64,000 bases of DNA. It comes from Octopus sinensis. Taxonomy: Eukaryota. Under the pieces are notes generated by a model. It made no database searches, was not told the origin of the DNA, and saw only the letters and a program-made list of their open reading frames with translations. Numbering within the stretch: the stretch's first letter is position 1; every line of letters starts with the position of its first letter. Location: contig NC_043015.1 in assembly GCF_006345805.1 (NCBI RefSeq), positions 36,456,001 through 36,520,000 of the forward strand, given 5' to 3'. The position numbers were made by a program, and so were the translations under genes. Below, piece after piece: positions 14,420 to 41,967 of the stretch.

Positions 14420-14883
14420 ATAAAGCTAAGCAGCAGGATGGAAAAGTAACGATACTCTGGGACTATGGTTTTCAGACGGAGCCTGTAATCGAACACTGTC
14501 CGCCGGATATTGTCATGTGGAATAAGAGAGACAGATACTGTCAGATCACTGATGTAGCCATACCAAATGACATGAATGTTGTGAATAAAGAGGTTGAAAA
14601 AAAACACCAAGTATTTCGAATTGAAAGTGGGAATGGTAAGATTGTATGGAATGTGAGAGGGTAATGTAAAAGTGGTGATCAGAGCGTTGGGCTCAATCCC
14701 ATTAAAACTTCAAGACTTCTTAAGGATGTCTTGCAAAAAGCAGCCTTAGTGGGCACAGCACACATCTTAAGAAAACTATTATCTGTCTAAAATTATGGTT
14801 GTTACTTGACAAAGAGTACAAAACCCCGGTTGACTCAATATCTTCAACCAACAACCTCATGATATTGGATAATCTGCGACAGC

Positions 14884-34264: not shown

Positions 34265-34774
34265 CTCAATGTAAGCAACAGTGTCTTGCTAAGCAAAACT
34301 GCAGTATTTAGAAACATTTTCATCAGAGAAATTAATCAATTAAACGTCTAGATTCTTCTACTGATAGAATAGGAGAGGAAGGTCCGGGTTTACGGGGAAC
34401 ACCAAAGCTAATCAGCTCGAAACCTCAGGGAGAGGATATTTAAAGGATATTGAGAGGCAACAAGGAACTTGGAAATTCCAAGGTAATTTAAGCCTCACTT
34501 AACTGAAAAGTCTAGCAAATTGAGAAGTTAATGTATCAGACAATTTCTTGGTAACTTTCTTAATCCAAGGGTCAATACAGACAATATATTCCCTCTCGAC
34601 CTCCACAATGTAATTTACATTACTTAACCGTGTTTATTTGATTGGAAAATAAAATGCAATTCCATCTTAGTTTTCATATCTTGTAGATATTCAATATTAG
34701 CTTCGTCATTAAGTTTCTTAATAATACTAATACCATTACAACTGCTGCTGCTGCCGCTACTACTACTACTACTA

Positions 34775-36142: not shown

Positions 36143-36175
<33 letters not shown>

Positions 36176-36178
<3 letters not shown>

Positions 36179-36842
36179 TCCAAAAAACGGAACACGAGCG
36201 TAACAGACGACAGTGCAGACATACGGACAGATGGACAATACAAAGACAGACAAGTAAAACCAGGCCGGAACATTCGTGGCTTTCTATTTATTAGTCAAGC
36301 ATCCAATAATCACTACAGTTTCAGCGTGTTCCACTTGAGATTGTTCAAAATAGGTAGACCCAAAAGTCCAAGAAAGCAGGCGAATATGTGCAGCAACACG
36401 GACAAAATTACAAGAGAACGAAGAAAATGTTACACTATTACAAATACAAACAAGAATAACTACACGTGTCTTTCGACTAAAAGGACAAGTTAAGCTGGCG
36501 TATATACATAGGCAAAGGTGTATGAATAAATATATATATATATTTTTATATGTGAGTGTGTTTGTGTGATTTATATAGCTGTGATGTCTATACGAATGTT
36601 CTTGGACCACAGTAATAACCGTCATCTTTATAACGATCGGTGAATTTTTATCTGACACAAACGATGTCAGCGCTATCTGTGTCTAGTGAAGATACGTGGC
36701 CAAGTGTTTGGCTGCTTGTCTAACGATCATTGGGTACAGGTTCAATGCTCTGGTCGGGCAGAGACTTACTGCCGCATTTAGTCGGTAGGTTTTATTGTGT
36801 GCGTGTGAGTATGTGTGTCTATACAAATATATTCATATACAT

Positions 36843-36923
<81 letters not shown>

Positions 36924-37623
36924 TATATATATAAGTCCAAAAAACGGAACACGAGCGTAACAGACGACAGTGCAGACATACGGACAGATGGACAATACAA
37001 AGACAGACAAGTAAAACCAGGCCGGAACATTCGTGGCTTTCTATTTATTAGTCAAGCATCCAATAATCACTACAGTTTCAGCGTGTTCCACTTGAGATTG
37101 TTCAAAATAGGTAGACCCAAAAGTCCAAGAAAGCAGGCGAATATGTGCAGCAACACGGACAAAATTACAAGAGAACGAAGAAAATGTTACACTATTACAA
37201 ATACAAACAAGAATAACTACACGTGTCTTTCGACTAAAAGGACAAGTTAAGCTGGCGTATATACATAGGCAAAGGTGTATGAATAAATATATATATATAT
37301 TTTTATATGTGAGTGTGTTTGTGTGATTTATATAGCTGTGATGTCTATACGAATGTTCTTGGACCACAGTAATAACCGTCATCTTTATAACGATCGGTGA
37401 ATTTTTATCTGACACAAACGATGTCAGCGCTATCTGTGTCTAGTGAAGATACGTGGCCAAGTGGTTTGGCTGCTTGTCTAACGATCATTGGGTACAGGTT
37501 CAATGCTCTGGTCGGGCAGAGACTTACTGCCGCATTTAGTCGGTAGGTTTTATTGTGTGCGTGTGAGTATGTGTGTCTATACAAATATATTCATATACAT
37601 ATACATACATACACACACACACA

Positions 37624-37673
<50 letters not shown>
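36176..37673. repeat. Near-identical 757-bp tandem duplication bounded by (TA)n
   Basis: 36176-36932 matches 36933-37673, apart from a 1-bp indel and microsatellite differences; ORFs 36284-36658 and 37041-37415 are identical. Confidence 0.97.
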
Positions 37674-37681
<8 letters not shown>

Positions 37682-38036
37682 TATCTTTATTGCTGAAAAG
37701 AAAGAAACTGCAGTCTGAGAATTACCGGTTTAGTAAATGTTTTTATCTTCATTTCACTTAATTTATCAAGCTTCTGTATTCCTAGCACATATTTCGCCTT
37801 AATGTACTGATATATGAAAAATATATGGCTTGTGTTAGTAATACCAGCGATTATAATTATTTTTATTTTATCGCAATTTGATTTGTTTACATATTTCTCG
37901 ATAAATTATGAGCGCCAGGCGATATACCAGAATTCCCTAGTGTTGTCGGGATGTTCGGAGTCTGCGCAGTGATATGATTAGTTAGGGAGAGTAAATCATT
38001 AGACGCACATGCTTCTAGTGAGTTAGGATCCCGGAA

Positions 38037-38127
38037 AAACAGGGTCTCACTGAAGAATTCTCCCTAAGCAAATAAATTATCTTTATTGATGAAAAGAAAG
38101 AAACTGCAGTCTGAGAATTACCGGTTT
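38037..38127 (+). ncRNA. Type I hammerhead ribozyme, copy 1 (predicted cleavage after C38111)
   Basis: Stem I TCTCA(38045-49)/TGAGA(38112-16); core CTGAAGA 38050-56; GAAAC-TGCA-GTC 38100-38111; long stem II. Confidence 0.75.
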
Positions 38128-38431
38128 AGTAAATGTTTTTATCTTCATTTCACTTAATTATCAAGCTTCTGTATTCCTAGCACATATTTCGCCTTAATGT
38201 ACTGATATATGAAAAATATATGGCTTGTGTTAGTAATACCAGCGATTATAATTATTTTTATTTTATCGCAATTTGATTTGTTTACATATTTCTCGATAAA
38301 TTATGAGCGCCAGGCGATATACCAGAATTCCCTAGTGTTGTCGGGACGTTCGGAGTCTGCGCAGTGATATGATTAGTTAGGGAGAGTAAATCATTAGACG
38401 CACATGCTTCTAGTGAGTTAGGATCCCAGAA

Positions 38432-38522
38432 AAACAGGGTCTCACTGAAGAATTCTCCCTGAGCAAATAAATTGTCTTTATTGCTGAAAAGAAAGAAACT
38501 GCAGTCTGAGAATTACCGGTTT
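38432..38522 (+). ncRNA. Type I hammerhead ribozyme, copy 2 (cleavage after C38506)
   Basis: Core CTGAAGA 38445-51; GAAACTGCAGTC 38495-38506. Confidence 0.75.
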
Positions 38523-38824
38523 AGTAAATGTTTTTATCTTCATTTCACTTAATTTATCAAGCTTCTGTATTCCTAGCACATATTCGCCTTAATGTACTGA
38601 TATATGAAAAATATATGGCTTGTGTAGTAATACCAGCGATTATAATTATTTTTATTTTATCGCAATTGATTTGTTTACATATTTCTCGATAAATTATGAG
38701 CGGCAGGCGATATACCAGAATTCCCTAGTGTTGTCGGGACGTTCGGAGTCTGCGCAGTGATATGATTAGTTAGGGAGAGTAAATCATTAGACGCACATGC
38801 TTCTAGTGAGTTAGGATCCCAGAA

Positions 38825-38915
38825 AAACAGGGTCTCACTGAAGAATTCTCCCTGAGCAAATAAATTATCTTTATTGATGAAAAGAAAGAAACTGCAGTCT
38901 GAGAATTACCGGTTT
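38825..38915 (+). ncRNA. Type I hammerhead ribozyme, copy 3 (cleavage after C38899)
   Basis: Core CTGAAGA 38838-44; GAAACTGCAGTC 38888-38899. Confidence 0.75.
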
Positions 38916-39219
38916 AGTAAATGTTTTTATCTTCATTTCACTTAATTTATCAAGCTTCTGTATTCCTAGCACATATTTCGCCTTAATGTACTGATATATG
39001 AAAAATATATGGCTTGTGTTAGTAATACAGCGATTATAATTATCTTTATTTTATCGCAATTTGATTTGTTTACATATTTCTCGATAAATTATGAGCGGCA
39101 GGCGATATACCAGAATTCCCTAGTGTTGTCGGGACGTTCGGAGTCTGCGCAGTGATATGATTAGTTAGGGAGAGTAAATCATTAGACGCACATGCTTCTA
39201 GTGAGTTAGGATCCCAGAA

Positions 39220-39309
39220 AAACAGGGTCTCACTGAAGAATTCTCCTGAGCAAATAAATTATCTTTATTGATGAAAAGAAAGAAACTGCAGTCTGAGAAT
39301 TACCGGTTT
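39220..39309 (+). ncRNA. Type I hammerhead ribozyme, copy 4 (cleavage after C39293)
   Basis: Core CTGAAGA 39233-39; GAAACTGCAGTC 39282-39293. Confidence 0.75.
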
Positions 39310-39614
39310 AGTAAATGTTTTTATCTTCATTTCACTTAATTTATCAAGCTTCTGTATTCCTAGCACATATTTCGCCTTAATGTACTGATATATGAAAAAT
39401 ATATGGCTTGTGTTAGTAATACCAGCGATTATAATTATTTTTATTTTATCGCAATTTGATTTGTTTACATATTTCTCGATAAATTATGAGCGCCAGGCGA
39501 TATACCAGAATTCCCTAGTGTTGTCGGGACGTTCGGAGTCTGCGCAGTGATATGATTAGTTAGGGAGAGTAAATCATTAGACGCACATGCTTCTAGTGAG
39601 TTAGGATCCCAGAA

Positions 39615-39705
39615 AAACAGGGTCTCACTGAAGAATTCTCCCTGAGCAAATAAATTATCTTTATTGCTGAAAAGAAGGAAACTGCAGTCTGAGAATTACC
39701 GGTTT
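39615..39705 (+). ncRNA. Type I hammerhead ribozyme, copy 5 (cleavage after C39689)
   Basis: Core CTGAAGA 39628-34; GAAACTGCAGTC 39678-39689. Confidence 0.75.
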
Positions 39706-41967
39706 AGTAAATGTTTTTATCTTCATTTCACTTAATTTATCAAGCTTCTGTATTCCTAGCACATATTTCGCCTTAATGTACTGATATATGAAAAATATAT
39801 GGCTTGTGTTAGTAATACCAGCGATTATAATTAGTTTTATTTTATCGCAATTTGATTTGTTTATATATATATATATTATATATATATATATATATATGGA
39901 GAGAGAGAGAGAGAGAGAGAGAGTTAGCAGTTATAACAATCGACTGAGGAATAAAAAATTCCGTATAACCATCGAAATCCGTTACTCATGTTATCTCTGG
40001 GCATGGGTATGCAGGCACACTGGTAGAGTGCAGGTAACAACAAAATAAACCAAAGTTTATCAGGAAACAAATATAAATGATCAGAAAATGTGGAAAACCT
40101 CAGATCAAGAAACTCGTCAATTGGTCCACATTAATACAAAACAACATTTATGTGTCAGAATAAATCTTGCGGCTGTTTCCACAGCCGATGCCAATCAATG
40201 TCTATAAATAATTCCTGAAATAAATTCATCATCTTCATAGGACATACGAACCAGGGCACGGAGCTTCATCAAACTAAAACAAAAGCATCCAAAATAAACG
40301 AAAGGAAGAAGGTGAAAAGAAAACATGGCCTAGAAAAGAATTCTGGAAGCCCGAAATATTTAAAGCATATAATCTAGTATCTTGGGGCTACGAATTTTGT
40401 AGGTAAGAGAGCGAACTAGTATTGTTCTAGGGAGCTAAAAAATATTTTTACGGGTAACCAAGATATTTTAAATGTTATGAAAAGAATGAAAAAACAAGGA
40501 AACTCGCTAACACGGCTATCAAATGGCGTTACCTCTGTAAACGAAAAAAACTCAGGTATAATGTATCCAAAACATTACCGTAGGGTGCTTAAAATAATGT
40601 ACCCAGAGAAATATTACAGAGAGCCCCACCTATTGTCCGAAATAGGACCGGTTTAAGTCCAGCGATCCCAACAATTGGTCAATTATATTTCAACCGAGGA
40701 CATAAGTTAAAACCGTTTCAACGGACAAAGATGAAAATAAATACCAAAATAAGAAAAGGGTACGATGGATAAGACAATGATATGAACAGTACAGGGTCAC
40801 CAGTGTCCTATTGCAGGCAGCTTATCGATATAACATGCATGGGAAAAAACGGTCAAATGGGCACAAGATTAAATTTATAGTTAAGGGGAGACAACTAGTA
40901 CAGGTATTACACCGAATCCATATAATCTGCTAGAAATAATATTGGACTTAACATCATATATAGCAAATTATGGTAATAATTTGATCCAAACAGGTAACAA
41001 AAATATTTCTGTCTTTTAGGCACACTACAATGCACAATCATAAAACCACTAACATTTAAGCGGTTAATATTTAAGACCGAATCTCATGTTATTTCTTATC
41101 ATGAATATAATTCTCAAGTTCAAACAGTATAGTAAATACGTCCAACAAGCATTATCATTATTGTTAAAGTTAGATGGTTGATATCATTTAATGATAGCAA
41201 CTATCCAACTTTAATGATAATGTAATACTTTTTATAAATATTTCAAAATTATGATGCTATGATACTAAGTGTTTACATTATTTTGTCTGAAATTTGTATA
41301 TATACGAATGTCTTTTGACAGTTGTATTTTATTTCCACAAGTATATATCAAATTTTTTGCCTCGTAGATACTTCTTTGTTGTTTTTCTTTCGTGTACTTT
41401 ATTTTCTCAAATAATAAAAGTTTCTTTTGTACCATATATGCCAACCCCTTTTCTTTTTTGCAGACTTTCAGCTCAAAACAACGACGTGAGAAGACAGAGG
41501 GAAAGAAATAAGAAAATGCGTCTTTAACGTAGAGAGTGTGATGACGTATGGATATGCAGAGCGACATATGTATATATATATATGCATGCACATAAACATA
41601 CACACACAAATTGGTATATTTATAAATATATTTATGGTTATATATATATATACGCATGTGTGTGTGTATAGGTATGAATATGTCTATATGAAATTAAATT
41701 TATATATGTTTATATATGTGTATATATATGCGTATGTGTGTGAGTGTGTGTATCTATATATAAGTAAATATCCATATATATATATAATATATATATATAT
41801 ATCATGTATCTTGAAAGATAAATATTGATACATACATACATACATATATATATATATATACATCTACAGGTATATATATGTATATATATGCACATGCACA
41901 CATATACAGGCACGCATACACACATAGATATATACATACATGCATGTATGTCTACGAGGTGCGCATA

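What the first reader, a model, noticed from the sequence alone, without database searches (positions are those of the whole stretch)
38100..38116. Minimal stem III with palindromic loop (ACTGCAGT) implies a dimeric hammerhead using adjacent units
Seen: stem III is only A-U plus C-G closed by TGCA, and ACTGCAGT is a perfect palindrome unchanged in all six occurrences (around 37707, 38103, 38498, 38891, 39285, 39681). Known: hammerheads with a very short stem III and a palindromic loop (newt satellite 2, Penelope-like elements, ASBVd plus strand) cleave as double hammerheads with an intermolecular stem III. Inference: the tandem organisation is functionally required, so multimers would cleave efficiently while released monomers would be stable.
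Basis: partly seen in the sequence, partly recalled or inferred. Interest (0 to 1): 0.75.

Follow-up and report, generated by a model that had tools for sequence, protein, structure and literature searches.

The report
Retrozyme array with dimer-type hammerhead
The palindrome lies in a predicted self-cutting RNA motif repeated in one copy of a scattered, protein-free jumping element of a known kind (a retrozyme); neighbouring copies likely pair through it to cut faster, a long-known trick, and the unusual part is that this young branch has spread after losing a base pair that such ribozymes nearly always keep.

Summary
Observation confirmed: six exact ACTGCAGT sites in a 5.6 x 395-bp array (37674-39868), but only five complete type I hammerheads; the first site has no catalytic half. 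The array is one insertion of a dispersed non-LTR retrozyme family: 39 of 40 arrays end at one unit position inside (TA)n, with scattered 5' ends. Compensatory changes between four subfamilies support the hammerhead fold. Dimer cleavage is likely: the double fold beats two single folds by 5.7-10.0 kcal/mol in 9 of 9 unit pairs. But this is textbook for animal type I hammerheads, and 'required' is not shown: 2 bp plus tetraloop is the ordinary invertebrate helix III, coral and mussel single copies cleave well, and the loop is no more conserved than background (P=0.22). The closest tested case is axolotl Amex2 (weak as monomer, better as dimer). No cleavage or RNA data here. This scan has already reported retrozymes of this kind on other DNA of this genome. 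New member of a known kind; interest 0.3.

The parts
37674..39868 (+). Retrozyme insertion: 5.6 tandem copies of a 395-bp non-coding unit, 5'-truncated, flanked by (TA)n on both sides (the last few bases run into the TA repeat)
   Evidence: TRF period 395, 98% matches; no stop-to-stop frame of 90 aa or more overlaps it; ends
37704..37720 (+). Half hammerhead of the truncated first unit: GAAA, palindrome (37707-37714), C17 (37715), helix I 3' strand; no CUGANGA, so it could be cut only by a partner
38045..38116 (+). Complete type I hammerhead 1: helix I 38045-38049/38112-38116, CUGAAGA 38050-38056, helix II 38057-38099 (A.A then 4 bp, internal loop, distal hairpin), GAAA 38100-38103, predicted cut after 38111
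38103..38110 (+). Palindrome ACUGCAGU: 2-bp helix III with tetraloop alone, or 8-bp duplex between two units
38440..38511 (+). Complete hammerhead 2, predicted cut after 38506
38833..38904 (+). Complete hammerhead 3, predicted cut after 38899
39228..39298 (+). Complete hammerhead 4, predicted cut after 39293
39623..39694 (+). Complete hammerhead 5 (A.G at 10.1/11.1), predicted cut after 39689
38112..38506 (+). Predicted unit-length RNA (395 nt) between two cleavage sites; candidate circle
   Evidence: inference, no RNA data
38040..38065 (+). Possible pseudoknot: CAGG(G) 5' of helix I with (C)CCUG in the helix II internal loop; invariant in all subfamilies, so no covariation support
39850..39868 (+). 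Fixed 3' end, about 172 nt after the cleavage site, where the unit's TA-like motif runs into (TA)n; inferred priming site
   Evidence: 39 of 40 arrays, 25 of 25 further arrays

Best explanation
The palindrome is helix III of a type I hammerhead motif in a dispersed, non-coding 395-bp tandem element (non-LTR retrozyme); in a multi-unit transcript neighbouring units likely pair through it into a double hammerhead that would cut faster than a single motif and release one unit, which is predicted to be circularised and then copied round and round into (TA)n sites by a borrowed, likely Penelope-type, reverse transcriptase. Dimerisation is best read as a strong enhancer, not as shown to be obligate. 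In this subfamily helix II begins with A.A, so single-motif activity is predicted to be low, as in axolotl Amex2. Shown: motif anatomy, covariation, dispersal, fixed 3' end, scattered 5' ends. Inferred: transcription, cleavage, dimer use, circles, identity of the enzyme.
For: Core CUGANGA/GAAA/UC with 5-bp helix I in five units. 540 genome matches to the core plus palindrome against 1 for the reversed control. Across 15 chosen variants of four subfamilies, helix I pair 2 is C-G in 8 and U-A in 7, the distal hairpin goes C-G/U-G/U-A, and helix II keeps 4-5 pairs in three unrelated letterings (99.1% of cells paired against 30-48% for slid controls; helix II was counted only in my own anchored table because MAFFT puts it out of register). 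Double fold 5.7-10.0 kcal/mol below two single folds in 9 of 9 pairs; 5.1 above with a non-palindromic loop. Palindrome has no propagated variant over 108 arrays 73-100% alike; 300 of 312 units exact; the one array-wide variant (L223, 2 of 2 units) keeps full pairing by G-U. Other hammerhead families here use other palindromes (92 of 100 listed rows palindromic, 87 of them one family). 39 of 40 arrays share the 3' end, and 38 of 40 5' ends tested fit a uniform spread (KS P=0.33). Units differ 0.6% within and 2.8% between arrays. RT plus GIY-YIG frames of 775-781 aa exist in the genome and several copies end in (TA)n. Axolotl Amex2 with 2-bp helix III and a U.U start of helix II: 22% cleavage in 1 h as monomer, much more as dimer (PMC7229834).
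Against: No cleavage was measured and no Rfam hammerhead model matches, even at E 10. Loop conservation is not significant: P=0.22 for the four loop letters, 0.048 for all eight of which four are constrained in a monomer too; 25 of 299 windows outside the ribozyme are equally invariant. In the three window pairs the double fold lies 17-21 kcal/mol above the free ensemble and 1.8-10.8 above one single fold (tertiary contacts are not modelled); the local minimum pairs the helix I 3' strand with the helix II 5' strand instead. Single coral and mussel copies cleave well. 8 of 13 rows outside the dominant family are not palindromic. No sequence link between this unit and any of the 48 GIY-YIG loci compared.
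Confidence: 0.62

Rival explanations
1. Monomer-competent ribozyme: the CAGG/CCUG contact or loop-loop contacts hold the fold, each motif cuts alone, and the palindrome is an inherited, optional feature; tandem form comes only from rolling reverse transcription.
For: Coral and mussel single copies cleave at about 0.8 and 0.1 per min. A 4-5 bp pseudoknot is possible in all 15 variants, and pseudoknots speed hammerheads (PMC3088659). Loop conservation not above background. One single fold costs less than the double fold in the three window pairs.
Against: Hairpin III alone is +2.9 kcal/mol; A.A weakens helix II further; the closest tested analogue needs the dimer for efficient cleavage; the pseudoknot shows no covariation.
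Confidence: 0.18
2. The window's subfamily is a nearly dead ribozyme: it spreads from uncut or rarely cut multimeric RNA, and the palindrome is a remnant.
For: A.A at 10.1/11.1 in 79 of 81 A-type rows among the first 100; PMC3088659 calls this the most conserved pair after 15.1-16.1 and names U-U as the best tolerated mismatch. Subfamily D spread with U4C plus A.C. Three-unit periodic variants in L036, L048 and partly L043 (lag 3: 9 against 4.1 expected, P=0.017 uncorrected over six lags) fit templates with uncut inner sites.
Against: The A lineage fixed compensatory changes in helix I, helix II and the distal hairpin, which points to selection on its own fold; array-wide homogeneity (127 fixed against 57 mixed variant cases) fits mostly single-unit templates; periodicity can come from DNA duplication or assembly.
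Confidence: 0.12
3. Cutting in trans: intact sister subfamilies (B, E) cut the weakened ones (A, D) in heterodimers docked by the shared palindrome.
For: Same palindrome in all four subfamilies while the catalytic half drifts in A and D. The B/D/E helix I 5' strand pairs fully with both 3' strands, the A 5' strand only with its own; the palindrome of another family does not cross-pair (-2.3 against -11.1).
Against: Compensatory change in A's own helix I argues for self-pairing; intermolecular docking must compete with the tethered neighbour; no evidence of co-expression.
Confidence: 0.08

Closest known systems
Metazoan non-LTR retrozymes (Cervera and de la Pena 2020, PMC7229834, parts 2-4 of 6 read; Li, Clavereau and Pollet 2026, 10.64898/2026.07.22.740005, part 1 of 5 and passages read)
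   Same: 150-450 bp non-coding tandem units with a type I hammerhead in each, GC under 50%, no LTR, dispersed, in a genome with Penelope-like elements; mussel units are 350-390 bp.
   Different: Expression, cleavage and circles were shown there and are untested here; here insertion is into (TA)n with one fixed 3' end and no readable target duplication; helix II is extended by an internal loop and hairpin.
Axolotl HHR_Amex2 (PMC7229834)
   Same: 2-bp helix III with tetraloop and a mismatch at the base of helix II; weak as monomer, efficient as dimer.
   Different: U.U there, A.A (or A.C) here; longer helix II and 5-bp helix I here.
Newt satellite 2, axolotl Amex1 and ASBVd plus-strand double hammerheads (PMC7229834; PMC6466107 passages; PMC4209133)
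   Same: Palindromic helix III that allows a double hammerhead.
   Different: Amex1 and the newt type have a single base pair in helix III; this one has two, so the case for an obligate dimer is weaker.
Hammerheads of Penelope-like elements (Cervera and de la Pena 2014, PMC4209133, parts 1-2 of 4 read; Lunse et al. seen only as a reference title)
   Same: Short helix I (5 bp), long helix II, small palindromic helix III; an alternative register with an extra A after position 9 is possible.
   Different: Those keep G10.1-C11.1 and flank an RT-endonuclease frame; this unit has no frame and no detected similarity to the PLE loci compared.

Membership tests
Type I hammerhead ribozyme | Core CUGANGA, GAAA, UH with open helix I | tested here: met
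   five motifs
Type I hammerhead ribozyme | Three helices supported by compensatory changes | tested here: met
   helix I, II and distal hairpin covary between subfamilies; helix III invariant
Type I hammerhead ribozyme | Paired 10.1-11.1 (usually G-C; highly conserved but with known natural exceptions) | tested here: not met
   A.A or A.G in the window, G-C in sister subfamilies B and E; U-U exception in PMC3088659
Type I hammerhead ribozyme | Match to an Rfam hammerhead model | tested here: not met
   none in the window, none among the 150 rows shown of 169 for B, D, E loci; the long helix II may explain it
Type I hammerhead ribozyme | Site-specific self-cleavage | not testable with these tools
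   only contigs of runs with guessed RNA status were available
Double (dimeric) hammerhead | Helix III of 1-2 bp with self-complementary loop, motifs in tandem | tested here: met
Double (dimeric) hammerhead | Double fold more stable than single folds | tested here: inconclusive
   better than two single folds in 9 of 9, better than one single fold in 2 of 9 and in 0 of 3 window pairs
Double (dimeric) hammerhead | Selection on loop self-complementarity within the family | tested here: inconclusive
   invariant but P=0.22; different palindromes in other families
Double (dimeric) hammerhead | Dimer cleaves much faster than monomer | not testable with these tools
   needs in vitro kinetics
Non-LTR retrozyme | Short non-coding tandem units, each with a type I hammerhead, two or more complete | tested here: met
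Non-LTR retrozyme | Dispersed copies with marks of reverse transcription | tested here: met
   40 arrays on many contigs, fixed 3' end, scattered 5' ends
Non-LTR retrozyme | Expressed as linear and circular unit-length RNA | not testable with these tools
   no raw reads offered
Non-LTR retrozyme | Mobilised by a Penelope-like element | tested here: inconclusive
   intact RT plus GIY-YIG frames with (TA)n ends exist; no shared sequence with the unit

The most novel reading that the evidence does not exclude
The palindrome is a family-specific docking code that lets ribozymes complement each other: subfamilies whose catalytic half has decayed (A.A in the window's branch; U4C plus A.C in branch D) keep spreading because intact sister RNAs cut them in heterodimers, a parasite living on another parasite's ribozyme.
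Probability: 0.08. Interest if true: 0.7.

Novelty: new member of a known kind. Interest (0 to 1): 0.3.

Why it matters
The dimer model itself is decades old, so confirming it here would add one more case. The family is useful as a natural test set: four subfamilies share one palindrome but differ at the base of helix II (G-C, A.A, A.C) and in the core (U4C), and the weakened branch is young and abundant. That makes it possible to ask how little ribozyme activity a retrozyme needs and whether dimer formation rescues weak motifs. The window's half site at 37715 is a built-in test of cutting by a neighbour.

Tried and rejected
Rfam: no hammerhead match at gathering score or E 10. Expression: no RNA holder listed; four runs with guessed RNA status gave contigs only, with no joints or end pile-ups; two contigs of unit length plus about 31 nt fit a circle or a tandem repeat equally, so no conclusion. 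Autonomous partner: PF26215 is not in the library; 48 GIY-YIG loci share nothing with units A or B beyond AT-rich matches of E 0.006 or worse; a search for a short-helix-II motif with the same palindrome gave 6 hits, four of one unrelated family with decayed helix II. Static satellite reading rejected: fixed 3' end over dispersed arrays. Minus-strand or type III hammerhead: none found in the array. Searches used structure strings that were one column off and are discarded; one search is the valid count. Per-array periodicity tests were mostly negative: 1 of 12 arrays at P<0.05. Circular monomer fold is only modestly stable (z -1.7, 40 shuffles). PMC5785218 and PMC147498 are not held, so I did not read the PLE dimer kinetics or the viroid core variant; that this variant is U4C is my recall. 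Figures and supplements of the papers were not seen, so I could not check the loop III letters of the coral and mussel motifs. A natural A.A at 10.1/11.1 did not turn up in one search (listing of 4 papers only) or in section 8 of PMC3088659; this is a weak negative.

Full report
1. The observation. The window is G000:C19:36456001-36520000 in a 2.7-Gb genome rich in simple repeats; earlier scan notes call it cephalopod, which I did not check. ACTGCAGT occurs seven times against 0.79 expected, six of them at the stated places inside a 395-bp tandem array at 37674-39868. Five sit in complete type I hammerhead motifs: 5-bp helix I, CUGAAGA, a 42-43 nt helix II region, GAAA, helix III of A-U and C-G closed by UGCA, UC. 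The first (37707) is in a truncated unit that lacks the catalytic 5' half. Sameness across six units that match at 98% is no evidence of selection.

2. What it is. A search of the genome with one unit gave 198 matches from 40 of 751 candidates scored. In these 40 arrays, 39 end at the same unit position about 172 nt after the predicted cut and run into (TA)n; L038 is the exception. All 25 further arrays end there too. 5' ends are spread over the unit: for 38 of the 40 (two left out because my query split them at the cut site; both start about 14 nt before it) a uniform spread is not rejected, P=0.33. None starts at the cut site, so the template ran through it: a circle or an uncut multimer. 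Units differ by 0.6% within and 2.8% between arrays. This is the footprint expected of target-primed reverse transcription and matches the non-LTR retrozymes of PMC7229834 and the 2026 preprint. Intact RT plus GIY-YIG frames are present and several copies end in (TA)n, but none of 48 loci shares sequence with the unit, so the partner is not identified.

3. Is it a hammerhead? Rfam finds nothing, but relatives settle the fold. Four subfamilies, 73-100% alike, were found: A (window), D, B and E. Helix I pair 2 is C-G in A and U-A in B, D, E; the distal hairpin goes C-G, U-G, U-A; helix II reads GCCU/AGGC in B, GCCA/UGGC in E and UUCU/AGAA in A and D. On 15 chosen variants 99.1% of cells pair against 30-48% for slid controls; these are few independent events. 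PMC3088659.1-11.1 the most conserved pair after 15.1-16.1 and reports U-U as the best tolerated mismatch. A CAGG/CCUG pseudoknot is possible in all 15 variants but never varies.

4. Does it work as a dimer? For: the 2-bp hairpin costs +2.9 kcal/mol, the 8-bp duplex gives -11.1. The double fold is nested and lies 5.7-10.0 kcal/mol below two single folds in 9 of 9 natural unit pairs, and 5.1 above when the loop is made non-palindromic. No propagated variant touches the palindrome in 108 arrays, 300 of 312 units are exact, and the one array-wide change keeps pairing through G-U. Other families in the genome use other palindromes (L225 and L226 differ by two loop letters and both stay palindromic). 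Against a strict requirement: the four loop letters are not more conserved than background (P=0.22), 8 of 13 rows outside the dominant family are not palindromic, one single fold is cheaper than the double fold in all three window pairs, and every active fold lies well above the free ensemble (17-21 kcal/mol for the window's double folds, 8-12 for B; tertiary contacts not modelled). In print, a 2-bp helix III with tetraloop is described as similar to invertebrate hammerheads, single coral and mussel copies cleave at about 0.8 and 0.1 per min, and axolotl Amex2, with the same helix III size and a mismatch at the base of helix II, gives 22% in an hour alone and much more as a dimer. Amex2 is the best model: dimer-enhanced, not shown obligate.

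5. Mechanism. Inferred chain: an array is transcribed; two neighbouring units swap strands through the palindrome so that each catalytic half cuts the other's site; one 395-nt unit is released and ligated (RtcB did this in vitro for other retrozymes); the circle has one weak motif and a competing fold and so persists; a Penelope-type enzyme primes at a nicked (TA)n on the unit's TA-like motif and copies round the circle until it stops at a random point. The tandem form is thus a product of copying, and two sites are needed for release whatever the fold, so genomic data cannot show that tandem form is required for the dimer's sake. Confidence 0.62 for dimer-enhanced cleavage within this cycle; about 0.9 for the retrozyme identity. 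Three-unit periodic variants in L036, L048 and partly L043 (pooled lag 3, P=0.017 uncorrected) hint that some templates held uncut inner sites, against 'multimers cleave efficiently', but DNA duplication or assembly could give the same.

6. Novelty and verdict. The dimer-with-stable-monomer idea is stated as the standard model in PMC4209133 and reviewed in PMC6765202 and PMC6466107 (passages). The scan has already reported retrozymes with the same insertion footprint elsewhere in this genome; a 404-bp one may be subfamily E, though a look-up by sequence returned nothing. New member of a known kind, interest 0.3. The boldest reading left open is cutting in trans of weakened subfamilies by intact ones through the shared palindrome (0.08; interest 0.7 if true).

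Noticed in passing
window 36146-36917 and 36902-37675: A near-perfect (99.5%) local duplication of about 770 bp directly 5' of the array, found nowhere else in the window; could be linked to the insertion, a segmental duplication or an assembly artefact.
   Followed up: no
L036, L048, L043: Unit variants recur every three units (L036 units 2, 5, 8, 11; L048 three variant sets plus a palindrome-breaking change in two units); possible trimeric templates.
   Followed up: partly
L178, L179, L187-L211: Subfamily D spread with a CCGAUGA core and A.C at the base of helix II; L206 has the normal core.
   Followed up: partly
L038 (G000:C3:29734112-29734762, minus): The one array of 40 whose 3' end lies one base before the predicted cut site instead of at the usual end; fits a cleaved linear template or chance microhomology.
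   Followed up: no
L082 5' flank, L113 5' flank: Retrozyme arrays sit right after the (TA)n tail of other elements: a minimal-hammerhead-bearing end in L082 and a tail like that of the PLE family L160/L161 in L113; shared target preference.
   Followed up: partly
L160-L172: Young Penelope-like families with 780-781 aa frames, a U3-A8 type hammerhead-like motif with CATG palindrome near the 3' end, and (TA)n tails.
   Followed up: partly
L225, L226: Two copies (88-93% alike) of another long-helix-II hammerhead family whose loops differ by two letters and are both palindromic.
   Followed up: partly
window 14450-14700: Short frame fragment resembling the endonuclease end of a non-LTR retroelement (my recall of the motif, no search run), interrupted by (GTA)n.
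   Followed up: no
window 34298-34305: Seventh ACTGCAGT outside the array, no hammerhead context; consistent with chance.
   Followed up: yes
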